From Pseudomonadota bacterium (GTDB lineage Bacteria > Myxococcota > Myxococcia > Myxococcales > Myxococcaceae), in contig WQTM01000232.1 in assembly GCA_009786315.1 (NCBI GenBank), positions 1 to 46,789 on the forward strand: a stretch of 46,789 nt of DNA. The letters run 5' to 3'. The notes beneath the pieces are model-generated. The model saw only the letters and a list, made by a program, of their open reading frames with translations. It did not search any database and was not told the origin of the DNA. How positions within the stretch are numbered: the first letter of the stretch is position 1; every line of letters starts with the position of its first letter. This document shows, one piece after another, positions 1 through 46,789 of this stretch. The position numbers were made by a program, and so were the translations under genes.

Positions 1-265
1 AAGTTCCCCGCCGGAGGCAAAATGCCCGGAGGGCGAGAAAGCCCGGGCCGCAGGCCCAGAGAGAACAACGCCCGAAGGGCGAAGAGAAACATTTCCAAAA
101 ATGGCCCGGGCCGCAGGCCCAAAGAGAACAACGCCCGAAGGGCGAAGAGAAACATTTCAAAAAAAAGCCCGGGCCGCAGGCCCAAAGAGAACAACACCCG
201 AAGGGTGAAGAGAAACATTTCAAAAAATGGCCCGGGCCGCAGGCCCAAAAACACATTGTCAGCTG
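1..265. repeat. Left copy of a GC-hairpin repeat element, inverted relative to the copy at 46607-46748
   Basis: nt 1-36 are the exact reverse complement of 46713-46748, with scattered mismatches after that. Both copies share the inner boundary ACATTGTCAGCTG (253-265 vs reverse complement of 46607-46619). The left copy has about 3.3 internal units and the right copy about 1.3. Confidence 0.85.
41..250 (-). repeat. 63-bp tandem repeat (about 3.3 copies). Each unit has two hairpin+U-tract modules when read on the minus strand
   Basis: GCCCGGGCCGCAGGCCC recurs at 41, 104, 167 and 230 (period 63). The minus-strand unit reads GGGCCTGCGGCCCGGGC-T(5-8)-GAAATGTTTCTCTT-CGCCCTTCGGGCG-TTGTTCTCTTT. It lies directly downstream of murI, which is on the minus strand. 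Confidence 0.85.
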
Positions 266-5264: not shown

Positions 5265-6647
5265 ATGCCAAATTTAGACATTGCTATCGTAGGTGGAGCT
5301 TTCACGGGGTTGTCGGCGGCGGCAGCACTGGCCGCACAAGGCTTAAAAGTGGCCGTTTTCGACAGCCTTTCTGGTCCCAACCCTCAATACCGTGGTGAGC
5401 TGATTCACCCGCGGGGTGTGCGTGGGCTTTCAAAGTGGGGGCTTTTGGAGCCACTGAGGAAAGCCGGTGGGCTGGATTTGAGTGGTTTTGCTGTTGCGCC
5501 TGAGGAGGATGGGAGTGAGGCGGTGCTTTTGGACTACCCCTCGTGGGGGGGCCCCGGCCTTGGCATTGAGCAGCACGCCATTGTCAACACCATGCGGGCG
5601 GAGGTTGCTGCGCGCCCCAATGTGACGTTGCACCTTGGCAAGCGCGTGGAGGGTTTGCTCCGAGAAAATGGCCGCATTGTCGGCCTCTATTTGGACGGTG
5701 GTGAGGAGGTGCGCGCAAGCCTCACCATTGGCGCTGACGGCCGTCAGTCCCATATGCGCCAATGGTTGGGTGTCCCCCACAAAGTCAAACTCCTCTCCTA
5801 TTCCGTCATCCTCACGGTGACAGAGGACGCTCTCCCCTATGGACGCCGCGGGCACGTCTTCCTGGGGGCGCCGGGCACCATTTTGGCCTACCCCTATGGA
5901 GAAAACCTTGTGCGCCTGTGCATTGACGTCTCCGTGGACGCGCCCAAAGGGCCCTCTGCCTGGAGAAGCCTCTTGCTGAATGAATATGTGCCCAAAATGC
6001 ATGAGCCTTTGCGTACAGCCGTCGAAAAAGTCCTCAGCGACGAAAGCCAGCCCATTGTCGCCGCGGGGACGCACTCCATCCGCACGGAGGCTTGTGTTGT
6101 GCCTGGGGCGCTGCTGGCAGGAGACGCTGCAGGTTGTGCACACCCCTTGACGGCGGGCGGCATGTTGAATGCTGTCAACGACGTGCTGCTTTTCTCCGAG
6201 TGCCTGGCCAAAGAGGGCCCCACGGACGAGGCCCTCAAAAACTTCCAGCGTGCGCGCTACCGCTTTATTCGCTCTCGCGAAATGTTTACGGACGCCCTCT
6301 ATGAGGTATTCAGCAGCAAGGCCGAAGGCGCTCGTGGTTTGCGCAAGGGCATTGTCCGCTATTGGCTTGAAAGCGAGCGTGCACGTGCCGCTTCCATGCG
6401 CATTTTGTCCGGCGATGAAACCAGCCCCACGGCCTTCTTGGGTGAGTATACCCGCGTCATGGGCCTTTCCACCTTGTCCATTTGGAGGAGTGAAAACGAC
6501 AAACTCACCGAGCGGGCTTTGCGCTTGTCGGCGCTGCTTCAAACCTCGTTGGGACGCTTGGAGCGTGCTGCTGAAATTACCATTGGCCAAATTTATGCGG
6601 ACCAGAAAACCCGCCTCAGTGCACTTCCCCCTCTCAAAGGCGAATAG
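5265..6647 (+). CDS. FAD-dependent squalene monooxygenase (squalene epoxidase)-like
   Basis: N-terminal dinucleotide fold DIAIVGGAFTGLSAAAALAAQGLKVAVFD. It is followed by YRGELIHPRGVRGLSKWGL (compare eukaryotic IVGELLQPGG..L..LGL) and GDAAGCAHPLTAGGMLNAVNDV (compare GDAxNMRHPLTGGGMTV). Confidence 0.7.
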   Translation: MPNLDIAIVGGAFTGLSAAAALAAQGLKVAVFDSLSGPNPQYRGELIHPRGVRGLSKWGLLEPLRKAGGLDLSGFAVAPEEDGSEAVLLDYPSWGGPGLGIEQHAIVNTMRAEVAARPNVTLHLGKRVEGLLRENGRIVGLYLDGGEEVRASLTIGADGRQSHMRQWLGVPHKVKLLSYSVILTVTEDALPYGRRGHVFLGAPGTILAYPYGENLVRLCIDVSVDAPKGPSAWRSLLLNEYVPKMHEPLRTAVEKVLSDESQPIVAAGTHSIRTEACVVPGALLAGDAAGCAHPLTAGGMLNAVNDVLLFSECLAKEGPTDEALKNFQRARYRFIRSREMFTDALYEVFSSKAEGARGLRKGIVRYWLESERARAASMRILSGDETSPTAFLGEYTRVMGLSTLSIWRSENDKLTERALRLSALLQTSLGRLERAAEITIGQIYADQKTRLSALPPLKGE

Positions 6648-6761
6648 GACTTCTCCCTCTTCTCCAGGGTAGCCCCCTTGAAAAATACTCGCTTGGGCCC
6701 TTGTGGTTTGGGCGGGTTTTTGTTTTTGAGGGGGGCATGCCGTCTCCAAGGAGTGTATGCC

Positions 6762-7673
6762 GTGAAAGCAAAAAGCATTCTCGAGTTGGTTGGCCGAACG
6801 CCGCACTTGCAGCTTTGCAAACTGTTTCCTCAGGCGGAGGTGTGGATGAAGTTGGAGCGCCAAAACCCCGGCGGCAGCCTCAAGGACCGTGTTGCGTTGG
6901 CAATGGTGGAGGCTGCTGAGAGAAGCGGCCTTCTCCAGAAAGGCTATACCATTGTTGAGCCTACCTCGGGCAATACGGGCATAGGCCTTGCCATGGTATG
7001 CGCAGCCAAAGGCTATGCCCTCATTCTCACCATGCCCGAGTCCATGTCCGTTGAGCGGCGCAACCTGCTTGCAGCCTATGGTGCACAACTGGTGTTGACG
7101 CCACACGCCGAAGGCATGTCCGGCGCCATAGCCAAGGCGCACCTGATTGCCCAAACCATGCCTCAGAGTTTCATGCCCTCGCAGTTTGAAAACCCTGAAA
7201 ACCCCGCCTGCCATGAGAGACAAACTGCCCGGGAAATTCTCGAGGACTTCCCTGAAGGTTTGGACGTGCTGGTGGCGGGTGTGGGCACCGGCGGCCATAT
7301 TTCAGGGTTGGCCAAAACCCTCAAACCAGTTTGGCCCAACTTGCATGTTGTCGCCGTGGAGCCCGCCTTGTCACCTGTGCTTTCAGGGGGACAGGCAGGC
7401 CCTCACCCTTTGCAAGGTATTGGTGCAGGTTTTGTGCCCCAAATGCTGTCCAGGGAGTGGGTGGACGAGGTGCTTTGTGTGGAGGGGGGAGAAGCCTTTG
7501 CTTGGTTGCGCAGGGCAGCGCGGGAAGAGGGCCTTTTGTGTGGCATTTCTTCGGCGGCGGTTTTGGCTGCGGCCAGCCGGTTGCTTTCTCAAAATGCTGC
7601 CCAGGGCCGCATTCTAACGCTCTGCTATGACAGTGCGGAGCGTTATTTGTCTGTTGAGGGTTTGTTGGCCTGA
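6762..7673 (+). CDS. cysK: Cysteine synthase A (O-acetylserine sulfhydrylase)
   Basis: Motifs NPGGSLKDR (PLP lysine) and EPTSGNTGIGLA. The GTG at 6762 has AAGGAG 8 nt upstream and gives 303 aa. The ORF-track start at 6678 is TTG. Confidence 0.9.
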   Translation: MKAKSILELVGRTPHLQLCKLFPQAEVWMKLERQNPGGSLKDRVALAMVEAAERSGLLQKGYTIVEPTSGNTGIGLAMVCAAKGYALILTMPESMSVERRNLLAAYGAQLVLTPHAEGMSGAIAKAHLIAQTMPQSFMPSQFENPENPACHERQTAREILEDFPEGLDVLVAGVGTGGHISGLAKTLKPVWPNLHVVAVEPALSPVLSGGQAGPHPLQGIGAGFVPQMLSREWVDEVLCVEGGEAFAWLRRAAREEGLLCGISSAAVLAAASRLLSQNAAQGRILTLCYDSAERYLSVEGLLA

Positions 7674-33525: not shown

Positions 33526-33598
33526 GCGGTGGTAGCTCAGCTGGTAGAGCACGAGCTTCCCAAGCTCGGGGTCGCGGGTTCGATTCCCGTCCGCCGCT
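33526..33598 (+). tRNA. tRNA-Gly (anticodon CCC)
   Basis: Hand-folded. Acceptor GCGGTGG/CCGCCGC (one G-U pair). D arm GCTC-AGCTGGTA-GAGC. Anticodon stem CGAGC/GCTCG with loop TTCCCAA. T arm GCGGG-TTCGATT-CCCGT. Discriminator T. CCA is not encoded. Confidence 0.93.
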
Positions 33599-33898: not shown

Positions 33899-36160
33899 TT
33901 GAATGAGGTGTTTGTGGAAAAAAAGGCGGTCCAAAAGAATACGGAGGCGTGGGCCCATTTCAAAACGCTGTTCGGCCAAGGCTTTCTGGTGAACTCGGCG
34001 TTGAAGCGCCTGTTCCATTTGTTGCTGCGCCTGGGGTCTCCTAAATTTGAGCAGGAAGGTTTCATATGGTTGGAGGACTTGGCACATTGGATGTGGCAGC
34101 CCGGGCGCGTCCCCAAATCCGTCCCGACAGACAACCGCTCCTTGGCACGCGCACGCTTGCTGCATGCGGTGTTAAAAGCCGAGCCTGCGCTGCACGAAAA
34201 ACTTCAGCGCTTTATGGCTTCCGTCGTCAAAAGCATGGATGTGGCGCATATGCTGACAGACACGGGCCTTCCTGGACAGCAGGCTTTTGGCAGCGAAATT
34301 CTCAACAGATTCATGCTGAATGTATTGCCGGCACCTCCTGTGGACCAGGAGTTTTCTTCTTTGTTGATGCGGCTTTTTCCCTCGGAGCGCGCGGTTGGGC
34401 GCTTTGAGCGTTTGGGAGCTGAAGGGCAAACTCTGTTGATGCATGTATTTTTTGGCGAAGAAAAAGCCCTGGCGCAACATTGGAAGGACCAAATGCGAAG
34501 GGCTTGCCGTGTGCTTGCCATGCGTATTTCCTCCAATGGCCTGGCCAACGACTTTGACGAGCGCGTGGACAAAACACGCTCTGGTGACAAATCTCCTTTT
34601 TTGAAGCTGCCCAGTTGCATTTTTGCCTATGTAGAAGAGCAAACAGAGTCCAACGAAAAAATGGAGCCTACCAAAAGTGGCAAGCACCCAAAAATGGAGG
34701 ACAAAGAAGCTCAAAAAACCGCTTGCCGAGAAATGATTGCCTCGTGTCGCCGTGTTGTACGAGAAGTTATGGACTCTCTCAACCACACCGGCATTAGCGT
34801 GGACCTTGTTTACCGCTTGGACTTATTGGGCCGCCGCTTGGACCGCCTCTATGCCCTGGTTTCCCTGTGTGCCCCCTCCTCCCCCGAGGGGATGGGGTTG
34901 AAGTTGGTGGGTACTCTGGTGAGGGGGTGCGAGAAAGACCGGAGTTTGGGTGAGTTGGTCCGTCGCAACGGCCGCTTGTTGGCGCGCCGAGTTATTGAGA
35001 GCGCCGGCCATAGCGGCGAGCACTATATTACGCAAACGCGCAAGGAACAGTTTCAAATGCTGGCTTCAGCCGCTGGAGGTGGCGTGCTGACAGCCATTGC
35101 TGTTGCCATTAAGGCAAGTTTGCACCTCCTCCAGGTGCTGGCCCAGACACCTCTGTTTAAGGGGCTTGCTGCGGGGATGAACTATGCTGGCGTCTTCGTG
35201 ACGATGCAGCTTTTGGGTTTCACACTCGCCACCAAGCAACCCTCCATGACGGCGGCCACCTTGGCAGGCGCCCTCAAGGAATATACCAGCTCCAGCGAGG
35301 CAGAAAAACGCTCCCTGGCCTCTTTGGCAGAGTTGGTGGTGCGCACCATTCGCACGCAGTTGTTTGCGCTTTTGGGCAATGTGGGCCTCGTTATTCCTGC
35401 AGCATTGTTGATAAACATGGGCCTGAAAGCCTGGGTGGGTTACCCGTTGATGACCATGGAGGAGGCCGAAAAAAGCCTCCACTCCTTCCACCTCTATGAA
35501 AGCCGAAGTTTGGCTTTTGCTGCACTGACAGGCGGCTACCTCTGGCTGTCGAGCATTTTGGCCGGTACTGTGGAAAACTGGGTGGTGTTTCGCAAGCTGC
35601 CTGAAGCCATTGCGAGCAACCGCAGGTTTAAGAAGCTGCTGGGGCAGAAGCGTACACACTACCTCGGACAATTTGTCCTCAAGAATGCCTCGGGTTTGGC
35701 GGGAAATATTTCACTGGGGTTTATGCTGGGGTTGACGCCGGCCATAGGCTTGTTTTTTGGCATGGACTTGGACATACGCCACATTACTTTTGCGGCGGGG
35801 CAGCTGATGTTTGCGGTGACGAGTATGGGCCCTGACGTCATGAGGACGCCAGAATTCCTCTGGGCCTTGGGCGGGCTTGCGGGCATTGCAGTGCTGAATT
35901 TCGGTGTTTCCTTCTCGCTGGCTTTGGTGGTGGCCCTGCGCGCCAGAGACGTGGACTTTTCAGGAGACAGACGCCTCATAAAACAGGTATTCCAACACTT
36001 CTTCCAGCGGCCTTTGGACTTTGTCTTTGCCCCGAGAATGGAGCTTGCCACGGTGCCTGTTGCCCCCGGGTTGAGCGACACTTTGAAGGAGGTACCCGCC
36101 AACACTCCCCCCACGGAGCAAACACAGGCCAAACCACCCGACAATATAGAGGGGACTTAG
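33899..36160 (+). CDS. Large polytopic membrane protein of unknown function, possibly the family annotated as 'site-specific recombinase' (PF10136)
   Basis: A roughly 380-aa soluble helical N-terminal half, then several hydrophobic helices (GGVLTAIAVAIKASL, AGVFVTMQLLGFTLA, LLGNVGLVIPAALLINMGL, GLAGIAVLNFGVSFSLALVVAL). The start codon is uncertain: TTG at 33899 or GTG at 33908/33914. The family assignment is from memory only. Confidence 0.5.
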   Translation: MNEVFVEKKAVQKNTEAWAHFKTLFGQGFLVNSALKRLFHLLLRLGSPKFEQEGFIWLEDLAHWMWQPGRVPKSVPTDNRSLARARLLHAVLKAEPALHEKLQRFMASVVKSMDVAHMLTDTGLPGQQAFGSEILNRFMLNVLPAPPVDQEFSSLLMRLFPSERAVGRFERLGAEGQTLLMHVFFGEEKALAQHWKDQMRRACRVLAMRISSNGLANDFDERVDKTRSGDKSPFLKLPSCIFAYVEEQTESNEKMEPTKSGKHPKMEDKEAQKTACREMIASCRRVVREVMDSLNHTGISVDLVYRLDLLGRRLDRLYALVSLCAPSSPEGMGLKLVGTLVRGCEKDRSLGELVRRNGRLLARRVIESAGHSGEHYITQTRKEQFQMLASAAGGGVLTAIAVAIKASLHLLQVLAQTPLFKGLAAGMNYAGVFVTMQLLGFTLATKQPSMTAATLAGALKEYTSSSEAEKRSLASLAELVVRTIRTQLFALLGNVGLVIPAALLINMGLKAWVGYPLMTMEEAEKSLHSFHLYESRSLAFAALTGGYLWLSSILAGTVENWVVFRKLPEAIASNRRFKKLLGQKRTHYLGQFVLKNASGLAGNISLGFMLGLTPAIGLFFGMDLDIRHITFAAGQLMFAVTSMGPDVMRTPEFLWALGGLAGIAVLNFGVSFSLALVVALRARDVDFSGDRRLIKQVFQHFFQRPLDFVFAPRMELATVPVAPGLSDTLKEVPANTPPTEQTQAKPPDNIEGT

Positions 36161-36243: not shown

Positions 36244-37323
36244 CTATTTCCAAATCAGAAACCGGGAGAAAAAATAGTTGATGAAAGCCCCCATGGCAAT
36301 GCCAACACCGGCCGCTAACCACCAAAAAACACCGTGACTTTGCAAAAATTCCGCGCTGGCAACGTTGGCAAAAGCACCCACCACGCAGGCGGCCACAAAT
36401 TTGCCATAGCCTATCAAAAGCGCTTTGAGGCCTCGCAAACGCTGCCGCCCAAAAGTGAGCCAGTTGTTTAAAAAATAGTTGGAAGTCATGGCGCATAATG
36501 TCGCAAAACTTTGCCCCAGCAGAAAAGACAGCCCCAGCCGCCGGTGCAAAAAAAACAGAATGGCCATGTGTACGCCCACGCCCAATAGGCCGACAAGGCA
36601 AAACATGGCAAACTGCGCATAGGCAAACCCGGAGAGCGTGCGGCTGAGCAAAAGCCACGCAAAATCCATTATTACGGGGTAGGAAAGTTTGGTGCTCCCA
36701 ACAGCCCGCTCCCGGAATATATAGGGGAACTCCTTTATGGAAAGGCGCAGCGTCGGCTGGGTGAGAATGTCAAAGAGAATTTTGAAGCCTCGCGACTGCA
36801 CCTTTTCTGCTACCGCGTCGATGAGGCCCCTGTTGAGGGCAAAAAAGCCGCTCATCGGATCGCTACAGGCCACCTTCATGCTTTTGCTGGCAAGCCAGGT
36901 GGCAAATTTGCTCAGGCCCACCCGGTTTTTGTCCCAACTCCCCGTCCCGCCTTCTTCCAAATAGCGGCTCGCCACCACCAGGTTGGCCTCACCCGAGGCC
37001 AAAGCCCCAAACATGGCAGGCAATAGGCACTCATCATGCTGCAAATCAGCATCCATCACCGCAAGACAGTCCGCCACCGTGGACATCATCCCCTCTACAC
37101 AGGCCGAAGCCAACCCCCGACGCCCCACACGCCGCAAAAAACGAACCCTGGGGTTATGCAAAGCCAGAGAGCGCAACTCCTCCACCGTGCCATCCGTGGA
37201 GCCATCATCCACAAAAACAACTTCCCAATCCAAATGCGCCAACACCTTCTCAAGACGCCTTGTCAAAGTGGTGACGTTGCGTGCCTCGTTCAACGTGGGA
37301 ACAATCACCGCATAGGCGGGCAT
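36244..37323 (-). CDS. GT2 polyprenyl-phosphate glycosyltransferase fused to a C-terminal GtrA-like membrane domain
   Basis: Motifs VIVPTLNEARNV, VVFVDDGSTDGT and MDADLQHD (DxD). The C-terminal ~120 aa have four TM helices ending in a GtrA-like FINYFFSRFLIW. Confidence 0.85.
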   Translation of the reverse strand: MPAYAVIVPTLNEARNVTTLTRRLEKVLAHLDWEVVFVDDGSTDGTVEELRSLALHNPRVRFLRRVGRRGLASACVEGMMSTVADCLAVMDADLQHDECLLPAMFGALASGEANLVVASRYLEEGGTGSWDKNRVGLSKFATWLASKSMKVACSDPMSGFFALNRGLIDAVAEKVQSRGFKILFDILTQPTLRLSIKEFPYIFRERAVGSTKLSYPVIMDFAWLLLSRTLSGFAYAQFAMFCLVGLLGVGVHMAILFFLHRRLGLSFLLGQSFATLCAMTSNYFLNNWLTFGRQRLRGLKALLIGYGKFVAACVVGAFANVASAEFLQSHGVFWWLAAGVGIAMGAFINYFFSRFLIWK

Positions 37324-37508
37324 GCCTCAAGTCCTCCGCCCTCTCAGGTTGCCGTCACCGGCCAGGGGCCTTTCAAAAAAAGCTCCACTCCCCAAAAGAA
37401 AGCAAAGCCAGAAAAACGTGCTCAAACACACCTTCGCCAAGCCTCCGGCCCCATAGCTTGGGCGTGCGAAAAACACAAGGGCGAAGCCGCTCCCTCCCAT
37501 GCCCCTGC

Positions 37509-38954
37509 CTATTTTGCCGTCGGCTCATTCAACAAATCCACGCTGGTGAAAACCAACAACTCCGGCGATTGCTTGCTCAACTTCAAACTTGGGTTGGAGC
37601 TCAACAAGTCCAAAATTTCACTTTTTTGGTTTTGATAGGGATACATGTCATGCATGGGAGCGACAAACACCATGCTGGAGTCAAAATGCTGGCCTGCCAT
37701 TGCAGGCGTCAAATAATATCTGTATTTGTGCAAAGAAAGCCGGGGGCCTATGCCGGTGGAGGCATAGATTTTCACTTCAGGAGGCAGAGGGAAGTGGGAG
37801 GAGAGCGCCTCATTGAGGCGGGGGATTTCAGACTCCAAGGGCCAACATGTCCGCAGGAAACGCAAAGGCATACGGCGGGAGCTGACAGTATAGGAGTCGA
37901 CGAAGGAGACGAGGAGGCAGAGGCAGGCCAAGGAGACGACAGTACGGCGCGAAAACCGCGCAAACCACGTTGTTTGCAGGAGGTGCAGCAAACCGAATGT
38001 GGAGGCGGCCAGAAAGAAAACTGTCGGCAAGTCCTGGTATTGGTGCGCGAAGCCATACATGGCCTGCCTCTCCGAAACCAAACCCAAACCCAAAAGGGGC
38101 AAAGCAGAGCACCCTGCCCAAAATGCGCGGCGACCCACCCAGGGCAGAAAAAACCAGAAGGCGACAAAGGCAAACAAAAAAAGTGCCTTTGCGTGCAACT
38201 CATAGAAAGGGCGAATGGAGCCGCTATAAATATAGTCCCCGCCCCCTGCAAAAAAGGGGATGATGTATTTGACGGCGGCGAAGAAATAGGCTGCTGACAG
38301 CAAGCATAGCACAAACCCCAGCCGGCGGTTTTGAGTAACCAACCAAGCATACATTCCGACGCCAAAAACGGCGACGGCCGCCCTCTCCTGCGCCAGGGCG
38401 ACAACAAAGCAAAAAAGGACAGCCCATATGAAGGCCCTGCGGTGCAGCGCAACCAGCGCGGCCAGCAAAAAAGGCATGACGAGCGTCGTCATATGGCTTT
38501 GAAAAGCCCATGCGCCGCAAAAACCCCGGAAGAGGGCCAGCGTCAGCAACAAAAACAAGGCAGGTGGAAGGTAGTCGTCCCGGCCATTTTGTTTCCAAAC
38601 TTCCCTGACAAAAACGGGGGTGAGGAAGAAGGTGGCGGCGAAGGCCAAACTGTGGAGGACAGAGAGCGTATAGTGGCTTGGGAAGAGGAGGAAAACCGGG
38701 GAGAGGGGGGCGGCAATCCAGGCGAGGTGGTCCGCCAGGAAGAGTACGCGGGGCTCCCCCTCATAGAGGGACATGCGCCAACCGTTGCCGTTTGCGAAAT
38801 TCCAAAGCAGGTTTGAAAAAATGCCATAGTCCCCGTCGTTGACTTGAAAGACATAGACTCGAAGCAAAGCCCCCACCAACCCTATCAGCGACAGCAGCAG
38901 CGGCGCCCCAACATGCACACTCAGCGGGTGCACAACAAACCGAAGTTTCCGCAT
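37509..38954 (-). CDS. DUF2079-like integral membrane protein (putative GT-C glycosyltransferase)
   Basis: More than 10 TM helices. The N-terminal loop DGDYGIFSNLLWNFANGNGW...LADHLAWIAAPLSP resembles the DUF2079 signature. The ATG at 38954 has GAGGGGGG 5 nt upstream; the ATG at 38993 is an alternative. Confidence 0.65.
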   Translation of the reverse strand: MRKLRFVVHPLSVHVGAPLLLSLIGLVGALLRVYVFQVNDGDYGIFSNLLWNFANGNGWRMSLYEGEPRVLFLADHLAWIAAPLSPVFLLFPSHYTLSVLHSLAFAATFFLTPVFVREVWKQNGRDDYLPPALFLLLTLALFRGFCGAWAFQSHMTTLVMPFLLAALVALHRRAFIWAVLFCFVVALAQERAAVAVFGVGMYAWLVTQNRRLGFVLCLLSAAYFFAAVKYIIPFFAGGGDYIYSGSIRPFYELHAKALFLFAFVAFWFFLPWVGRRAFWAGCSALPLLGLGLVSERQAMYGFAHQYQDLPTVFFLAASTFGLLHLLQTTWFARFSRRTVVSLACLCLLVSFVDSYTVSSRRMPLRFLRTCWPLESEIPRLNEALSSHFPLPPEVKIYASTGIGPRLSLHKYRYYLTPAMAGQHFDSSMVFVAPMHDMYPYQNQKSEILDLLSSNPSLKLSKQSPELLVFTSVDLLNEPTAK

Positions 38955-39069
38955 ATTACCCCCCTCTTTGCCATGTGGCCCTGGAAATGACATGTCCGTT
39001 GTTTTTCCTCTCTTGTTTGGGGCCCCCTCTTATTCCCTTGGAAAGCCCCCGTACAAGCAGAAAAACCAC

Positions 39070-43035: not shown

Positions 43036-43380
43036 GGGAAGCTTCTCCTATAGGTATCTTCGGTATACAATAAAAACGAGCATGAGGACCTACACCGAGG
43101 CCAAAGCCCACCCCCTTTCCCGCAATACCCATGCTCGTCCCCAACGCCCTGCCGCACCAGGGGCAACCGCGCCACCCCCTGCGGGTAGTCCAGTTGCGCC
43201 TCCTACGGAGTGAGGGGGAGGCCCTCATTGTTCGCAGGGCCAAAATATATTTGGCTCGCCTTCTATGTTTCCCAACACCATTGGGCGGCTCGCGGCAGCA
43301 AGAATTTGCTGCGGGCCAACAAGAGTTGTGGGGTTTCTCATCCGCGAGGGAAGGGAGGTTCTCCCCGCCATAGCCTTCAA

Positions 43381-46167
43381 CTATTGCGCGGAGGATGGGT
43401 TTTTTGCGCCAGAAAGAATTGTTGTCAGCCCAAGGTGGGTCTCCAAACACTTTTCCAGCTTTTCACGTTCCCTGCTTCCATCTGTACGGAAGCGCATGAG
43501 CGGTATTCCGAGGGTTTCAAAAATGGCGTCTTTCAAGCTGTCCCTCTCTTTCTGTCTGCTGCCTTTTTTATGAAAGACGACGCCATCCACCTCCACACCG
43601 AGAACGGGAACATTCCCCAACTGATTGCAGATTAACAGGTCCACATGCGTTTTCTCATGTTCAGCATATTTTCTTTGCTCATCGCTAAGCTGGTCGCCGG
43701 TCCTGAGCAATTTTTTCAATGGATAATGCATAGTTACGGTGTACTTTTCATATTTTTCTTGCTGCAAAATTTCGCAGACAAGGTGATACATCAGGTTTTC
43801 GCTATCATATTTTGACGGGCGTCTTCTGTTTTTGAAAAATTCCTGGCGTTCCTCGGTGTAGCATTTGTATAAATAGTCAAAAACTGAGCGTATTTCGCTG
43901 TGTACAACACCCATTTTGTTGTATTCGATGTATTGGATGAGATCATTCATATTGGAATCGCTGGTGTCCTCATTGCCGTGCATGAGCAACACCATGTGGC
44001 GCTCGGCCCTGGAGACGGCCACATTAATTCGGTTGGCATTGTCGACAAATTCATTGTAGTTGTTAGAAACTGTAGAAAAAATAATGGTTTTGTGCTCCCG
44101 GCCCTGGAACTTATCCACAGTATCCGCTTTGATTTTTGTGCCGTCAAACTCTCGTTTGAGCACATCCGCCTGGTTCACAAAGGGTGCTGTAATACCAATA
44201 GAGTCCTTGTCCGGATCCAAATTGAGGTCGCGAAAAATTTCGTTTTCAATGACATCAACCTGCCGCTGATTCATATTTCCTTGTGCATGATTGCCTTTCA
44301 CTGTCCGATATAGCCAGAGGGGTTTTCTGTCGTCTTTTGGGTCGGGCTCGGTTAAAACAATCAATTGGTTTTTATAAAATTTTTTATTGCAGAATTCGAT
44401 GATTTTTGGGTGGCAGCGGTAGTGTTCTCGCAGTTGTGTTTTGGGGATGTCCGGGAACAATTTGGACAAGGAGCTCAGGAGGTTATGGGTGGCATAATGG
44501 TAGGCCTCCGGCAAGGAGAACTCCTGAAATATGCGATTTGATAGGGCGATGTGTTCGTTTTTGACGATGTTGGGGAGCTGTTTCAAATCGCCAACGATGA
44601 CAGCTTTTTTGGCGCAGGCGAGAGCCAGAGCGCCTGCGGTTAGGTTTATCTGAGACGCTTCGTCCATGATGAGCGTATCATACATGACATTTTCGGAGAG
44701 GCTGCTCCTGATGGAGAATGTGGTGCTCAGGATGACTGGGTAGTTTTGGGCAAAGGCATCGGAATTTTTCCAGAGGTCGTCGAGTGTATATGTCTTTCGT
44801 TGGAGAGCCTTATATTTTTTGTGGAGAAAGGCTTTGAAGAGTTTCATGGACCCTTCGGTGTACTCCTTCATTTTTTTATCGAAGGAAAAGTCGGAAAGGT
44901 CAGTGGATAATTGTGCTATGCGCTCTCGAAGTTCAGCGCATTTTTTTTCGTAAAAGTGTTTTTGACAGACCAGAGACATGCCTTCGAAGGAAAGGCTATA
45001 AAAGCCAGCATCAGCAAGGCCGAAGCGGAATAGATTTTTGATACGTTTCCAAAAGCCAAATTGCTTGTTGCGCTCGGCGGTGTCCTCACAGGTTAGCCAG
45101 AGCCAGAGGGCTTTCCTGGCATCTATTTTTCGAAAAGTTTTCAAAGGAGGAGCGGCGGCATAAGCATCGCCATAATATTGGGTATAGTGAAAAATTTCGA
45201 CTTCAAGGGCTTCCAGTTCCCGTTTTAGCAGGGACATGTTGTTTTTCTTTGCCAGTTTCTCTTCCAGGTTAACAAAACTCTTATGGAGCTCGCCTCGAAG
45301 CGCTTCTTCTTGCTCTGGACTCATATTCCAGTCCGACATGTCCGGCAGTTTTGGTTGGTTGGCGATAAAGGCGCTTTTGTTGTCTTTTTTTCCGAGAGGG
45401 GCTGCGATAAACCCCAACCCATACTTTTCAAGTTTCTCCAGCACATTTGCGGTGGCAGCATTGTTGTTAGAGACCACGGCAACGAGCTCGTTATTCATGA
45501 CGGCGTTGGCCACGAGGTTTAGGATGGTTTGGGTTTTACCCGTACCGGGTGGCCCCTCAATAAGTACCAAAGGATGGCGCATGGACTGCTCTACGGCGGC
45601 TTTCTGGCTGAGATTGAAGCTGAAAGGATAGATGGGTGTTGGTGGCTCGTTTGGCAGTTGCGAAGGCTGCTTCCCGTGCAAATAGGTTGCCAGCACGCTG
45701 TCCTCTCGGACAAAAGAAAGACGGTCATATTGCTTTTTCAGAAAGCTTTCGCTCTCATCGTCCGGGTCTTTTTTATCAACGCATTCTGTGGCAACTCGTT
45801 TTAAGTATTCCAGGCAATCGTTCGAACGTTGAGCCGTCAGGCAGCTTCGCACAAATTGCACCTCGCCTTTTCCAAAAACCTTGGGAGGTTTTGACGCTTC
45901 TTTGTATACAATACGAACATGCCGGTCAAAAACCAGGGCATATTGCATGTCAAAAAGGTATTTGCCGTCCTTGAAAACCTTGACTTGTTCCGGCAAAAGT
46001 TTTTCTGGGTTTTGGTATACTTCGACATTATTTTTATTGAATGGATAGGGTTTTGTAAAATCGCGCACAAAGACGATGATAACCCTGTCGCCGAAGGTGT
46101 TGCAGGAATGTATGTCCTGAGTTCTGTCCTCACCCCTGACAAAAATGAGATGTTTTTCTTGGTCCAT
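43381..46167 (-). CDS. SF1B (Upf1/DNA2-like, AAA_11/AAA_12) helicase fused to a C-terminal DUF2726/Vsr-like PD-(D/E)xK nuclease, with an unassigned N-terminal domain
   Basis: Helicase motifs GPPGTGKTQT, LIMDEASQ, VIVGDLKQLPN, EHYRCHPKIIEFCNKKFY, VDKFQGREHKTIIFS and INVAVSRAERH. C-terminus HVDLLIC...VLGVEVDGVVFH...RDSLKDAIFETLGIPLMRF. Start at the ATG at 46167; the ORF-track start at 46179 is TTG. AT-rich relative to its neighbours. Confidence 0.85.
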   Translation of the reverse strand: MDQEKHLIFVRGEDRTQDIHSCNTFGDRVIIVFVRDFTKPYPFNKNNVEVYQNPEKLLPEQVKVFKDGKYLFDMQYALVFDRHVRIVYKEASKPPKVFGKGEVQFVRSCLTAQRSNDCLEYLKRVATECVDKKDPDDESESFLKKQYDRLSFVREDSVLATYLHGKQPSQLPNEPPTPIYPFSFNLSQKAAVEQSMRHPLVLIEGPPGTGKTQTILNLVANAVMNNELVAVVSNNNAATANVLEKLEKYGLGFIAAPLGKKDNKSAFIANQPKLPDMSDWNMSPEQEEALRGELHKSFVNLEEKLAKKNNMSLLKRELEALEVEIFHYTQYYGDAYAAAPPLKTFRKIDARKALWLWLTCEDTAERNKQFGFWKRIKNLFRFGLADAGFYSLSFEGMSLVCQKHFYEKKCAELRERIAQLSTDLSDFSFDKKMKEYTEGSMKLFKAFLHKKYKALQRKTYTLDDLWKNSDAFAQNYPVILSTTFSIRSSLSENVMYDTLIMDEASQINLTAGALALACAKKAVIVGDLKQLPNIVKNEHIALSNRIFQEFSLPEAYHYATHNLLSSLSKLFPDIPKTQLREHYRCHPKIIEFCNKKFYKNQLIVLTEPDPKDDRKPLWLYRTVKGNHAQGNMNQRQVDVIENEIFRDLNLDPDKDSIGITAPFVNQADVLKREFDGTKIKADTVDKFQGREHKTIIFSTVSNNYNEFVDNANRINVAVSRAERHMVLLMHGNEDTSDSNMNDLIQYIEYNKMGVVHSEIRSVFDYLYKCYTEERQEFFKNRRRPSKYDSENLMYHLVCEILQQEKYEKYTVTMHYPLKKLLRTGDQLSDEQRKYAEHEKTHVDLLICNQLGNVPVLGVEVDGVVFHKKGSRQKERDSLKDAIFETLGIPLMRFRTDGSREREKLEKCLETHLGLTTILSGAKNPSSAQ

Positions 46168-46307
46168 AGCGCTCTGCAAAGCCCCTTTAAGTTGGACAAT
46201 AGGTTTTTCTTGGCCTTCCGTCCACTGCGCCTGTTTCCGAAATGGTTTTTGCTTTTCCGGCCCCGCAGAGCGCGCACAGTTTCTGAAAAAACTGGGAAGT
46301 GTGCACG

Positions 46308-46323
46308 CATAGCAGTTGCTATG
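46308..46323. promoter_or_regulatory. 16-bp palindrome CATAGCAGTTGCTATG upstream of the helicase-nuclease gene
   Basis: Read directly: CATAGCA / TGCTATG arms with a 2-nt centre. It lies about 140 bp upstream of the ATG at 46167 on the minus strand. Confidence 0.3.
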
Positions 46324-46606
46324 TCGCTATTGCTTTCAATAATTTTTGGGGGGTGAGGGGCAGAATGCACCCCTCAGCCGAGAAGAGAGCAACGCTTCAG
46401 CGTGTGCCTACAGGCAAAACCGCTGTTTTTGAAAATGGGGCGCACACGGCCAATTGCACTATTTGGGTTTTGCGTTCCCCACAATACATACACCTATTAG
46501 CAGCTTTCGCCCACGGGTGGCTATAATAGGACATTAGGAGCAAGGGCAGTCGGAAAACGGATAAAGTGTGTTTTTGGAGGTAGGATATGCACACCGTGGA
46601 GGGGGT

Positions 46607-46748
46607 CAGCTGACAATGTTTTTTTTGGGCCTGCGGCCCGGGCTTTTTTTGAAAACATTTCTTTTCGCCCTTCGGGCGTTGTTCTTTCCTGGGCCATGCG
46701 GCCCGCGCTTTTTCGCCCTCCGGGCATTTTGCCTCCGGCGGGGAACTT
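46607..46748. repeat. Right copy of the GC-hairpin repeat element, inverted relative to 1-265
   Basis: Reverse complement of 46713-46748 equals nt 1-36. GGGCCTGCGGCCCGGGC+T7 at 46627-46650, CGCCCTTCGGGCG at 46667-46679, and GGGCCATGCGGCCCGCGC+T5 at 46691-46713. On the plus strand these read as hairpin+T-tract modules. Confidence 0.85.
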
Positions 46749-46769
46749 TTTGCTCGCCCAAAAAGTTCC
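46742..46769. repeat. 10-bp-stem palindrome GGAACTTTTT-N8-AAAAAGTTCC at the outer edge of the repeat element
   Basis: Read directly. The window starts (AAGTTCC...) inside the equivalent hairpin of the left copy, so the left copy is truncated by the window edge. Confidence 0.7.
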
Positions 46770-46789
46770 TCAAAAACGGCTCCCTCCGG

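What the first reader, a model, noticed from the sequence alone, without database searches (positions are those of the whole stretch)
43381..46167. Isolated AT-rich helicase-nuclease fusion: candidate single-gene defence module with an unassigned N-terminal domain
**Domain structure (928 aa).**
- About 190 N-terminal residues (MDQEKHLIFVRGEDRTQDIH...) with no motif I can assign.
- A complete SF1B/Upf1-like helicase core, with an insertion of about 280 aa of helical sequence between motifs I and II.
- A C-terminal HVDLLIC..VLGVEVDGVVFH..RDSLKDAIFETLGIPLMRF module, which is the pattern of DUF2726/Vsr-like restriction-endonuclease-fold nucleases.

**Context.** Hand counts of sample 60-nt lines give about 32-52% GC inside the gene, against about 65% in the adjacent aas-fusion gene. 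The gene is a lone transcription unit. It is flanked by 345 bp and about 430 bp of non-coding DNA and abuts the repeat element at the contig edge.

**Interpretation.** Helicase+nuclease single proteins are a recurrent anti-phage design (for example Nhi and the Gao 'Hhe' type). The domain order, the large insertion and the N-terminal domain here do not match any system I can name.
Basis: partly seen in the sequence, partly recalled or inferred. Interest (0 to 1): 0.72.

Follow-up and report, generated by a model that had tools for sequence, protein, structure and literature searches.

The report
Stand-alone helicase-nuclease, probable defence gene
This is an intact, horizontally acquired gene for one protein that joins a Upf1-type helicase motor to a restriction-enzyme-like DNA cutter; it belongs to a large, unnamed family that travels alone between unrelated bacteria and often sits among anti-phage genes, so it is a plausible but untested single-gene immune system rather than something categorically new.

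Summary
The ORF is real (43381-46167, minus strand, 928 aa). Pfam places AAA_11, AAA_12 and DUF2726 above their gathering cut-offs, and an AlphaFold model (pLDDT 86) matches Upf1/IGHMBP2/senataxin/Dna2 helicases. All helicase motifs and the nuclease residues (E790, D843, E859, D861, K879) are invariant in 61 homologues, and dN/dS against a 79% homologue is 0.13.

It is not unique. More than 5,900 homologues share the architecture across many bacterial phyla. No partner gene, large or small, is conserved in 80 genomes. None of 80 relatives of the neighbouring aas-fusion gene carries it. The 79% homologue sits in a different locus, next to a tRNA and an IS fragment, and only the coding sequence is shared. 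The E. coli member occurs in 12% of complete genomes. Neighbours match 78-85 PADLOC families, against 17 for background loci.

It fails the membership tests for Mokosh II, Hhe, Nhi, ProA and CoCoNuT III-B, but it repeats their theme of a Upf1-like helicase followed by a nuclease. The helical insertion is a clade feature. Only residues 1-130 are truly unassigned: a family-specific β-module, probably duplicated, with no significant structural match.

Verdict: a new variant of a known kind. The defence role is inferred, not shown.

The parts
43381..46167 (-). Complete CDS of the helicase-nuclease fusion (928 aa, stop codon at 43381-43383)
   Evidence: ORF list. The same 928-aa product is called in two assemblies. 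dN/dS is 0.13 against the 79% homologue.
45832..46167 (-). Residues 1-112: family-specific all-beta N-terminal module, probably two tandem ~50-aa beta units
   Evidence: AlphaFold pLDDT is above 90 with 11 strands. No Pfam or PDB sequence match. No Foldseek hit at E<=1e-3 in PDB or BFVD; the weak top hits are tandem Tudor domains of FMRP/FXR. The two halves align in register with hhalign P=2e-4. In the listed hits the module is found only at the N-terminus of this family.
45619..45831 (-). Residues 113-183: helical linker and N-terminal extension of the helicase core
   Evidence: Helices at 113-129, 142-148 and 158-164 in the model. The PADLOC MkoA model aligns from residue 135. Y121, L143, P181 and F182 are invariant.
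45358..45618 (-). Residues 184-270: first part of RecA1 with the Q-like motif (N185-x-S-Q188) and Walker A GPPGTGKT (205-212)
   Evidence: Pfam AAA_11/AAA_19/AAA_30. Invariant columns.
44740..45357 (-). Residues 271-476: all-helical insertion in RecA1 between motifs I/Ia and II, including helices of 49 and 31 residues
   Evidence: DSSP of the model, pLDDT mostly 86-97. Present in all 120 homologues with occupancy of about 1.0. The same feature is described for CnuH helicases (PMC11090510).
44488..44739 (-). Residues 477-560: rest of RecA1 with motif II DEASQ (502-506) and motif III GDxKQLP (526-532)
   Evidence: Invariant D502, E503, S505, Q506, G526, D527, Q530 and L531.
43984..44481 (-). Residues 563-728: RecA2 (AAA_12) with conserved REHYRCH (580-586), QGRE (688-691) and VAVSRA (716-721) stretches
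   Evidence: Pfam AAA_12 at 1.8e-26. Invariant columns. Foldseek top hits are SETX, IGHMBP2, UPF1, Sen1 and Dna2, E 1e-22 to 1e-18.
43450..43809 (-). Residues 787-906: DUF2726, a Vsr-like restriction-endonuclease-fold nuclease domain
   Evidence: Pfam PF10881 at 52.5 bits, cut-off 24.7. Invariant S789, E790, N791, D843, E859, V860, D861, G862, H866, Q872, R875, D876 and K879. Predicted alpha-beta-beta-beta-alpha-beta order. Some homologues also hit DUF559 (PF04480) or REase_MTES_1575 (PF18741).
43036..43380 (.). 345-bp spacer between the gene's stop codon and the start of the aas-fusion gene; lineage-specific
   Evidence: DNA similarity to the closest relative (L090) ends at 43050. No terminator-like site. 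The structured RNA fold has z=-3.2 but no U-tract.
46168..46789 (.). Upstream non-coding DNA, with a tract of GC hairpins at 46620-46745 where the assemblies break
   Evidence: The ENA and JGI contigs are identical here and both end in the repeat tract.

Best explanation
The gene encodes a self-contained, horizontally mobile helicase-nuclease that most likely acts in defence against phages or other invading DNA.

Proposed mechanism (inferred):
1. The Upf1-like SF1B motor loads on single-stranded nucleic acid, such as phage replication or recombination intermediates, or possibly transcripts.
2. It translocates 5'->3' using ATP.
3. It delivers the C-terminal Mg-dependent Vsr-like (DUF2726) endonuclease, which nicks or degrades the nucleic acid.
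4. The family-specific N-terminal beta-module and the long helical insertion in RecA1 act as substrate- or trigger-recognition and gating elements that keep the nuclease quiet in uninfected cells.

Shown here: the architecture, intact and conserved catalytic motifs in both enzymes, purifying selection, single-gene mobility, patchy distribution, and neighbourhoods rich in defence genes.

Inferred: the defence role, the polarity, the substrate (DNA or RNA), and the regulatory role of the N-terminal module.
For: - Domains are above Pfam cut-offs.
- The model is confident (pLDDT 86, pTM 0.76), and its best structural matches are Upf1-family helicases.
- Walker A, DEASQ, QGRE and the nuclease residues D843/E859/D861/K879 are invariant in 61 sequences.
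- dN/dS is 0.13.
- 5,948 homologues share the architecture across many bacterial phyla, plus one MAG labelled as archaeal.
- No conserved neighbour was found.
- The gene is absent beside aas in 80 relatives, including the 82%-identical one.
- The 79% homologue shares only its coding sequence (81% nt). It lies after tRNA-Gly(GCC) and an IS3-type transposase fragment.
- The E. coli member is in 648 of 5,426 genomes, inside an IS-rich island.
- Gene GC is below flank GC in 51 of 66 loci.
- Adjacent ORFs match 78 PADLOC families and distal ORFs 85, including BREX, Shango, SIR2, DRT and type I/II/IV R-M. Background loci match 17.
- Validated analogues need both helicase and nuclease activities: Mokosh (bioRxiv 10.1101/2022.05.11.491447) and Nhi (bioRxiv 10.1101/776245).
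Against: - No experiment exists for any family member in the literature I could search.
- In this window the visible neighbours are ordinary chromosomal genes (aas fusion, DUF2079, glycosyltransferases, ScpAB, a XerC-like recombinase). The far side is lost at the contig end, so no defence island is shown for this copy.
- The neighbourhood comparison counts PADLOC families, not proteins. The background comes from other taxa with higher GC, so the roughly five-fold contrast is only semi-quantitative.
- Composition is only moderately atypical, with GC3 within the window's range.
- The C-terminal fold was not confirmed by a separate structure search, and no PDB sequence homologue exists.
Confidence: 0.55

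Rival explanations
1. RNA-directed variant of the same idea. The Upf1-like motor surveys transcripts or RNA-DNA hybrids of the invader and the nuclease cleaves RNA. This has been hypothesised for Mokosh and predicted for CoCoNuT systems.
For: The closest solved helicases are mostly RNA helicases: SETX, IGHMBP2, UPF1, Sen1 and Aquarius. The best PADLOC hits are MkoA and MkoC. The CoCoNuT paper argues for RNA targeting by CnuH-type helicases, including the type with a fused Vsr-like nuclease.
Against: The Vsr/DUF559/DUF2726 group consists of DNA endonucleases where characterised (PMC3424549). Upf1-family members such as Dna2 and IGHMBP2 also act on ssDNA. Nothing in the sequence discriminates RNA from DNA.
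Confidence: 0.15
2. ATP-dependent, modification-dependent (type IV-like) restriction enzyme in one polypeptide. The N-terminal beta-module reads a modified base or another DNA mark, and the helicase and nuclease then cleave. This is comparable in logic to SauUSI (recalled from memory).
For: The weak Foldseek hits of the N-terminal module are to tandem Tudor/Agenet 'reader' domains, with probability 0.5-0.8. Type IV enzymes are among the commonest immediate neighbours (3 of 140), which shows a shared habitat.
Against: No structural hit reaches E<=1e-3, and TM-scores are 0.2-0.3. About half of the family has a shorter N-terminus that lacks roughly one beta unit, which is unexpected for an essential reader. 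No known base-flipping or SRA/EVE/YTH-type fold was detected.
Confidence: 0.1
3. A housekeeping or mobile-element-maintenance helicase-nuclease used for DNA repair, recombination or replication (Dna2- or AddAB-like), or carried for the benefit of a mobile element. It would not be an immune gene.
For: Dna2 is a structural neighbour and is itself a helicase-nuclease. In this window the visible neighbours are ordinary chromosomal genes. Homologues occur on some plasmids and beside IS elements and a group II intron RT.
Against: The patchy distribution (12% of E. coli genomes), the absence from close relatives of this locus and the lack of any conserved partner or synteny argue against a core repair role. 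It is almost absent from phage genomes, with only 3 partial hits in 50,697 records. Only 18 of 72,556 plasmid records carry it, and 16 of those 18 are typed non-mobilizable, so it is not a standard mobile-element backbone gene.
Confidence: 0.12
4. A recently acquired gene with no current function in this host (neutral cargo on its way to decay).
For: It lies at the edge of a repeat-bounded segment. The E. coli homologue is split in O157:H7 strains. P0134 is a variant that lacks the helicase.
Against: The reading frame is intact and every catalytic motif is present. dN/dS is 0.13 over 913 codons at dS of about 0.86 against the 79% homologue.
Confidence: 0.05

Closest known systems
Mokosh type II (MkoC), Millman et al. 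2022
   Same: It is a single gene with a Upf1-like (COG1112) SF1 helicase followed by a C-terminal nuclease. Defence was shown to need both the ATP-binding site and the nuclease active site (bioRxiv 10.1101/2022.05.11.491447). The MkoA and MkoC models are the best PADLOC matches to this protein (169 and 163 bits).
   Different: The Mokosh nuclease is phospholipase-D type; here it is DUF2726 (restriction-endonuclease fold), and no PLD domain appears among the Pfam matches. The PADLOC matches cover only the helicase part of the models: MkoC best stretch at positions 625-940 of 1136, MkoA at 565-1072 of 1112. The roughly 560-620 N-terminal model positions are unmatched, and this protein has its own 130-residue beta/helix N-terminus.
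CoCoNuT type III-B CnuH helicase (Bell et al., eLife 2024, PMC11090510)
   Same: It is a UPF1-like SF1 helicase with a large helical, partly coiled-coil insertion right after Walker A, and a Vsr-like PD-(D/E)xK nuclease fused directly to the helicase.
   Different: CnuH works within an operon with McrB-like CnuB, McrC-like CnuC and coiled-coil CnuA, and it carries an N-terminal wHTH and an OB fold. Here there is no conserved partner of any size, no wHTH or OB fold was detected, and the N-terminus is a different beta-module. Direct sequence comparison was not possible because the CnuH III-B sequences are not held.
Hhe (Gao et al. 2020), NCBIfam NF042953 'DUF4011 domain-containing anti-phage protein Hhe'
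   Same: It is a single protein. As I recall it, not tested here, an AAA_11/AAA_12-type helicase is followed by a Vsr/DUF559-like endonuclease. There are partial HMM matches over the helicase core.
   Different: The Hhe models are about 1,800-1,900 positions long and are named for DUF4011. This protein scores 115.6 bits against a cut-off of 2000, matches model positions 1251-1460 only, and has no DUF4011 match.
Nhi (nuclease-helicase immunity), Bari et al. 2022
   Same: It is a compact single protein that combines a PD-(D/E)xK nuclease with an SF1 helicase. Homologues are spread by HGT and lie near defence genes. The proposed logic is degradation of phage replication intermediates, with an autoinhibited nuclease (bioRxiv 10.1101/776245).
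   Different: Nhi is 606 aa with the nuclease at the N-terminus and a DUF2075 (PF09848) helicase. Here the nuclease is C-terminal and the helicase is AAA_11/AAA_12. PF09848 scores 23.5 bits, below its cut-off of 24, and only over the P-loop. No Nhi model appears among the PADLOC hits.
Eukaryotic Upf1-family helicases (UPF1, IGHMBP2, senataxin/Sen1, Dna2)
   Same: The helicase core fold and motifs are shared: Foldseek E 1e-22 to 1e-18 and phmmer E down to 7e-19. Dna2 also combines this helicase with a PD-(D/E)xK nuclease.
   Different: Sequence identity is only 14-18%. The accessory domains differ. In Dna2 the nuclease is N-terminal (recalled) and the protein is a core replication and repair factor, whereas this family is accessory and mobile.

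Membership tests
Upf1-like SF1B helicases (Pfam AAA_11 + AAA_12) | Both Pfam domains above the gathering score | tested here: met
   AAA_11 scores 86.0 bits and AAA_12 scores 93.4 bits; the cut-off is 27 for each.
Upf1-like SF1B helicases (Pfam AAA_11 + AAA_12) | Helicase motifs I, II, III and the C-terminal arginine-containing motifs intact and conserved | tested here: met
   GPPGTGKT 205-212, DEASQ 502-506, GDxKQLP 526-532, QGRE 688-691 and VAVSRA 716-721 are invariant or nearly so in 61 sequences.
Upf1-like SF1B helicases (Pfam AAA_11 + AAA_12) | Fold similarity to solved Upf1-family structures | tested here: met
   Foldseek top 40 hits are SETX, IGHMBP2, UPF1, Sen1, Dna2 and Aquarius, with probability 1.00 and E down to 1.5e-22.
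Upf1-like SF1B helicases (Pfam AAA_11 + AAA_12) | 5'->3' ATP-dependent unwinding activity | not testable with these tools
   This needs a biochemical assay.
DUF2726 (PF10881) / Vsr-like PD-(D/E)xK nucleases | Pfam match above the gathering score | tested here: met
   52.5 bits against a cut-off of 24.7, residues 787-906, profile positions 6-121 of 126.
DUF2726 (PF10881) / Vsr-like PD-(D/E)xK nucleases | Conserved acidic and basic putative catalytic residues on the core strands and helix | tested here: met
   E790, D843, E859, D861, H866, R875, D876 and K879 are invariant in 61 sequences. The strand and helix order fits an alpha-beta-beta-beta-alpha-beta core.
DUF2726 (PF10881) / Vsr-like PD-(D/E)xK nucleases | Restriction-endonuclease fold confirmed against solved structures | tested here: inconclusive
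   A profile search of the C-terminal 178 residues against PDB sequences found nothing. Full-length hits are dominated by the helicase.
Mokosh type II (MkoC) | Upf1-like/COG1112 helicase domain | tested here: met
   PADLOC MkoC at 2.3e-48 and MkoA at 3.8e-50, over the helicase core.
Mokosh type II (MkoC) | C-terminal PLD-family nuclease | tested here: not met
   No PLD domain appears among the 25 Pfam matches at E<=1. The C-terminus is DUF2726.
Mokosh type II (MkoC) | Match along the whole MkoC model | tested here: not met
   The best-scoring stretch covers only model positions 625-940 of 1136. The same holds in five other family members.
Hhe | NCBIfam equivalog NF042953 above its cut-off | tested here: not met
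   115.6 bits against a cut-off of 2000; model positions 1251-1460 of 1797 only.
Hhe | N-terminal DUF4011 region | tested here: not met
   No DUF4011 match appears in Pfam, and the N-terminal 185 residues match no Pfam family.
Nhi | DUF2075 (PF09848) helicase domain | tested here: not met
   PF09848 scores 23.5 bits, below the cut-off of 24, over residues 200-248 only.
Nhi | N-terminal PD-(D/E)xK nuclease (first ~230 aa), protein of ~600 aa | tested here: not met
   The nuclease domain here is C-terminal (787-906) and the protein is 928 aa. Nhi's features are taken from bioRxiv 10.1101/776245.
CoCoNuT type III-B (CnuH) | UPF1-like helicase with a large helical insertion after Walker A and a fused Vsr-like nuclease | tested here: met
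   The family description is in PMC11090510.
CoCoNuT type III-B (CnuH) | Operon with McrB-like CnuB GTPase, McrC-like CnuC and coiled-coil CnuA | tested here: not met
   In the window the flanks are the aas gene and non-coding DNA. No recurrent neighbour was found in 80 loci. AAA_5 (the Pfam family that I recall includes McrB-type NTPases) was matched by only 2 of 140 adjacent ORFs.
CoCoNuT type III-B (CnuH) | Sequence clustering with CnuH III-B representatives | not testable with these tools
   The supplementary sheet with the III-B sequences is truncated in the held copy.
ProA / PLuB helicase-like anti-phage proteins (NCBIfam) | Score above the curated cut-off | tested here: not met
   ProA scores 128.7 against a cut-off of 1500; PLuB scores 102.5 against 999.
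Anti-phage defence genes in general (guilt by association) | Accessory, horizontally mobile, and enriched next to known defence genes | tested here: met
   The gene is patchy and occupies different loci. Neighbours match 78 and 85 PADLOC families, against 17 in the background set. This is semi-quantitative only.
Anti-phage defence genes in general (guilt by association) | Protection against phage on expression | not testable with these tools
   This needs an experiment. No published test of this family was found.

The most novel reading that the evidence does not exclude
The family is a widespread, so far unnamed single-protein immune system. Its family-specific N-terminal beta-module, with no detectable relative in the PDB or in the viral structure library, would be the sensor that licenses a Upf1-type motor to drive a Vsr-like nuclease on invader nucleic acid. 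That would add a fourth nuclease/helicase pairing to the Mokosh/Hhe/CnuH group. It would also give a compact, experimentally tractable model, because an E. coli member exists in 12% of genomes, for how Upf1-like helicases are gated in immunity.
Probability: 0.45. Interest if true: 0.55.

Novelty: new variant of a known kind. Interest (0 to 1): 0.42.

Why it matters
Upf1-like helicases joined to nucleases recur in bacterial immunity (Mokosh, Hhe, CoCoNuT), yet how the motor recognises an invader and gates the nuclease is unknown. This family is the most compact version found here: about 850-930 aa, no partner genes, and a small family-specific N-terminal module. It is abundant, with thousands of homologues, and an E. 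coli member is present in 648 of 5,426 complete genomes, so it can be tested directly in a model host. If it defends, it would fill an annotation gap, since these proteins are currently labelled only 'AAA domain-containing protein' or 'DUF2726 domain-containing protein'. It would also offer a simple system for studying helicase-nuclease coupling. If it does not, it would be a caution against reading every helicase-nuclease fusion as immunity.

Tried and rejected
1. Conserved partner gene. All-against-all clustering of 1,111 ORFs of 80 aa or more from 80 loci found only the focal family to be recurrent: 76 loci, against 8 scattered loci for the next cluster. The same test for 25-120-aa ORFs within 700 bp found nothing.
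2. Assigning the N-terminal domain. None of these gave a significant match: Pfam scans of 20 members, a PDB profile search, and Foldseek against PDB and BFVD. A profile search of 1.84 billion representatives, in its 150 listed hits, found the module only in this family.
3. Confirming the nuclease fold through a PDB sequence profile gave no hits.
4. Looking for an 'empty site'. The closest aas relative (L090) has an ArsR-type HTH gene upstream instead, and no sequence there matches the far side of the helicase. So there is no clean insertion scar and no target-site duplication.
5. Shared ancestry of the locus with the 79% homologue, suggested because both lie next to MFS-acyltransferase genes. 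I rejected this. The neighbours are 47% identical and oppositely oriented, and only the coding sequence is similar at the DNA level.
6. Using ORFs 6 or more genes away as a neutral control. This failed because they too are rich in defence genes. It was replaced by unrelated loci.
7. Promoter and terminator scans gave nothing decisive. The only promoter-like site on the gene's strand near its start lies inside the ORF, and there is no terminator between the gene and aas.
8. Phage origin. Only three partial hits on uncultured faecal contigs were found.
9. Obtaining CnuH III-B sequences from the paper's supplement. The sheet is truncated.

Full report

Yes. The minus strand carries an uninterrupted ORF from 46167 (ATG; a TTG lies four codons upstream at 46179) to the stop at 43381-43383, giving 928 aa. 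The same 928-aa product is called on two independently assembled metagenome contigs: ENA ERZ27257339 (47 kb) and JGI 3300002552 (13.7 kb). They have the same gene order and an identical 631-bp upstream sequence, so the junction with the aas-fusion gene is not an assembly chimera.

Pfam places three domains above their gathering scores:
- AAA_11, residues 184-537, 86 bits
- AAA_12, residues 563-728, 93 bits
- DUF2726, residues 787-906, 52.5 bits

The gene is 46.0% GC, the aas gene 59.9% and the whole window 53.1%. It is the lowest-GC 2.8-kb stretch of the window. Its GC3 (0.54), however, lies inside the range of other genes here (0.51-0.72).

'Lone transcription unit' cannot be established. The gene is co-directional with aas, and no terminator-like site lies between them.

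**2. Anatomy**

An AlphaFold2 model built on 61 homologues is confident (mean pLDDT 86, pTM 0.76). Its best structural neighbours in the PDB are all Upf1-family SF1B helicases: senataxin/Sen1, IGHMBP2, UPF1, Dna2, Aquarius and nsp13, with E from 1e-22 to 1e-14. A sequence search of PDB chains agrees.

Across 61 sequences from many phyla, the following are invariant or nearly so:
- Walker A motif GPPGTGKT (205-212)
- DEASQ (502-506)
- GDxKQLP (526-532)
- QGRE (688-691)
- VAVSRA (716-721)
- nuclease-domain residues E790, D843, E859, D861, H866, R875, D876 and K879

The C-terminal domain is predicted as alpha-beta-beta-beta-alpha-beta, the core order of restriction-endonuclease-fold enzymes. Some homologues additionally hit DUF559 or REase_MTES_1575. 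The published survey of this superfamily lists DUF2726 both beside Vsr and DUF559 and as its own group (PMC3424549).

Between motifs I/Ia and II there is an all-helical segment of about 205 residues (271-476), with helices of 49 and 31 residues. It is present in every homologue.

The 'unassigned 190 residues' shrink on inspection. The MkoA helicase model already aligns from residue 135, which leaves residues 1 to about 130 unassigned. These form a very confidently predicted all-beta module (1-112, pLDDT above 90) followed by a helix. The evidence on this module is as follows:
- It has no Pfam match, no PDB sequence match and no significant Foldseek match. Zero hits reach E<=1e-3 in the PDB or the viral library, and the weak leaders are tandem Tudor domains of FMRP/FXR.
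- Its two halves align in register (hhalign P=2e-4).
- The shorter size class of the family (about 850 aa) lacks roughly one such unit.
- A profile of the module finds 840 cluster representatives among 1.84 billion proteins. [quoted passage not shown]

So the module is specific to this family.

**3. How common is it, and does it travel?**

The protein is not an oddity. 5,948 proteins passed E<=1e-5 among the 8,000 candidates scored. The best 120 all share the same three-domain architecture, in two length classes of about 850 and about 905 aa. They come from Desulfovibrionaceae, Oscillospiraceae, Chryseobacterium, Sphingobacterium, Treponema, Elusimicrobium, Brevibacillus, Synergistaceae and a MAG labelled Bathyarchaeota.

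A scan of species-representative genomes returned 80 loci that add Campylobacterota, Chlorobiaceae, Fibrobacter, Deferribacteraceae, Streptococcus, Paenibacillus, Leifsonia and others. In these loci nothing recurs next to the gene. The only ORF cluster found in more than 8 loci is the gene itself, and no small ORF within 700 bp is conserved either. It is therefore a single-gene module.

Of 80 metagenomic relatives of the aas-fusion gene (37-82% identity), none has the helicase-nuclease in its flanks. In the closest relative, an ArsR-type HTH gene sits upstream of aas, and DNA similarity to the window stops at 43050, 15 bp upstream of the aas start codon.

The nearest homologue (79% aa, 81% nt) is in a Desulfovibrionaceae MAG. 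There, only the coding sequence is similar to the window (43413-46158). Its flanks are a tRNA-Gly(GCC) plus an IS3-type transposase fragment on one side, and on the other a convergent MFS-acyltransferase that is only 47% identical to the window's aas fusion. So the same gene sits in different places in related organisms.

The two copies differ by dS of about 0.86 and dN of about 0.11 (dN/dS 0.13), which indicates purifying selection.

Further signs of mobility:
- The E. coli member (31% identical) occurs in 648 of 5,426 complete genomes, almost always chromosomal, within an island full of IS1 and IS66 elements. It is split in O157:H7 strains.
- Family-wide, the gene is lower in GC than its flanks in 51 of 66 loci.
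- It is essentially absent from phage genomes (3 partial hits in 50,697 records) and rare on plasmids (18 of 72,556 records).

**4. Neighbourhoods**

The 140 ORFs immediately adjacent to family members match 78 PADLOC families at E<=1e-10. These include type IV and type I restriction enzymes, PbeA, PDC-S72, PDC-S01/S02 and PDC-M66A (a HipA-like kinase). Pfam adds ResIII, Fic, DUF2971 and DUF1016.

ORFs six or more genes away in the same loci match 85 families. Very strong hits include BrxL, PglZ and BrxD (BREX), SngB (Shango), SIR2, a DRT reverse transcriptase, and type I, II and IV R-M.

A background of 137 ORFs from the unrelated aas-relative loci, called by the same method, matches 17 families, mostly generic ones (Lon-like 'BrxL', mad3/mad8, Csa3).

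The contrast of roughly five-fold supports a defence-island habitat. It is only semi-quantitative, however, because it counts families rather than proteins and the background comes from other taxa.

Annotated examples show the same picture. One 902-aa homologue sits beside a group II intron RT, a DDE transposase and DUF6088, with a segment carrying a DruA-domain gene present in some contigs and absent in others.

For the window's own copy, no defence neighbour can be shown. One side is ordinary chromosome (aas fusion, DUF2079, glycosyltransferases, ScpAB, a XerC-like recombinase) and the other side ends in repeats.

**5. Most likely mechanism**

I commit to a single-polypeptide nucleic-acid-degrading immune enzyme. 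The Upf1-type motor loads on single-stranded regions of invader nucleic acid and translocates with ATP. The fused Vsr-like nuclease cuts. The N-terminal beta-module and the helical insertion recognise the trigger or restrain the nuclease.

Shown: the architecture, intact catalytic residues, purifying selection, single-gene mobility, and the defence-rich habitat of the family.

Inferred: everything about the substrate, polarity, trigger and gating.

The inference leans on validated analogues. Mokosh needs both its helicase ATP site and its nuclease site (bioRxiv 10.1101/2022.05.11.491447). Nhi's nuclease is autoinhibited in the full-length protein and is proposed to act on phage replication intermediates (bioRxiv 10.1101/776245).

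Confidence that the family is a defence or anti-mobile-element system is about 0.55. The rivals are an RNA-targeting version, a modification-dependent restriction enzyme, a repair or mobile-element maintenance enzyme, and inert cargo. They are scored separately.

**6. Comparison with known systems**

It works like the Mokosh II / Hhe / CnuH III-B group, but it is a member of none.
- Mokosh II: the helicase clade is shared, but the nuclease must be PLD. Here it is not, and only the helicase part of the MkoC model is matched.
- Hhe: it scores 115.6 bits against an NCBIfam cut-off of 2000 and has no DUF4011.
- ProA and PLuB: it falls far below both cut-offs.
- Nhi: it has the opposite domain order and a DUF2075 helicase, and PF09848 is below its cut-off here.
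- CoCoNuT III-B CnuH: this is the closest description on paper, a UPF1-like helicase with a helical insertion after Walker A and a directly fused Vsr-like nuclease. It is defined, however, by its McrBC-like partners, which are absent here and in 80 other loci.

**7. Novelty and verdict**

NCBIfam (June 2026) and PADLOC-DB 2.0 have no model for this family. Sources name it only 'AAA domain-containing protein', 'DUF2726 domain-containing protein' or 'superfamily I DNA and/or RNA helicase'. Full-text searches found no paper that tests or names it.

It is best filed as a new variant of a known kind: a helicase-nuclease defence candidate. It is real, intact and mobile, but neither rare nor mechanistically surprising. 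Its practical value is that it is abundant, compact and directly testable in E. coli.

Noticed in passing
window 41-249 and 46620-46745 (also L090 8069-8211): Both ends of the contig stop in the same family of GC-hairpin repeats. There are 3.3 tandem copies of a 63-bp unit (two hairpins per unit) at 41-249, and related hairpins in the opposite orientation at 46620-46745. The motif GGGCCTGCGGCCCGGGC occurs 5 times in the window where 0 are expected by chance. Copies also occur in the closest relative's contig. The ENA and JGI assemblies both break here, so this is probably a dispersed REP-like element.
   Followed up: partly
window 33526-33598 and 33899-36160: tRNA-Gly(CCC) is followed 300 bp later by a 753-aa PF10136 'site-specific recombinase' (E 1e-180). 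This might mark the border of a variable segment that includes the glycosyltransferase, DUF2079 and aas genes.
   Followed up: no
window 36244-38993 compared with L090 5608-5657: In the closest relative, the sequence just after aas matches window 36000-36049. That contig therefore lacks the DUF2079 and GT2/GtrA genes present here, and the region around aas is variable beyond the helicase gene.
   Followed up: partly
P0134 (257 aa, from the representative library): This protein joins the N-terminal beta-module directly to the DUF2726 nuclease, with the whole helicase missing. It is either a natural deletion derivative or an assembly artefact. If real, it hints that the module and the nuclease can work together.
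   Followed up: no
E. coli O157:H7 genomes (hits H22-H24); L086/L087: The E. coli family member is annotated as two pieces ('AAA domain-containing protein | hypothetical protein') in O157:H7 strains, which suggests a frameshift, and is intact in other lineages. It lies upstream of a PAPS-reductase plus ParB/IbrB-like gene pair, in an island with IS1 and IS66 elements.
   Followed up: partly
L088 47-121, about 300-460, 6224-6297 and 6399-7412: The 79% homologue lies after tRNA-Gly(GCC) and a truncated IS3-type transposase HTH fragment. A DUF1016/YhcG PD-(D/E)xK nuclease gene and tRNA-Cys lie a few kb downstream, which is a typical integration-hotspot layout.
   Followed up: yes
window 43200-43395 (minus strand): The RNA just downstream of the stop codon folds much better than shuffled controls (z=-3.2). 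It has no U-tract, so it is not a canonical intrinsic terminator, and its role is unknown.
   Followed up: partly
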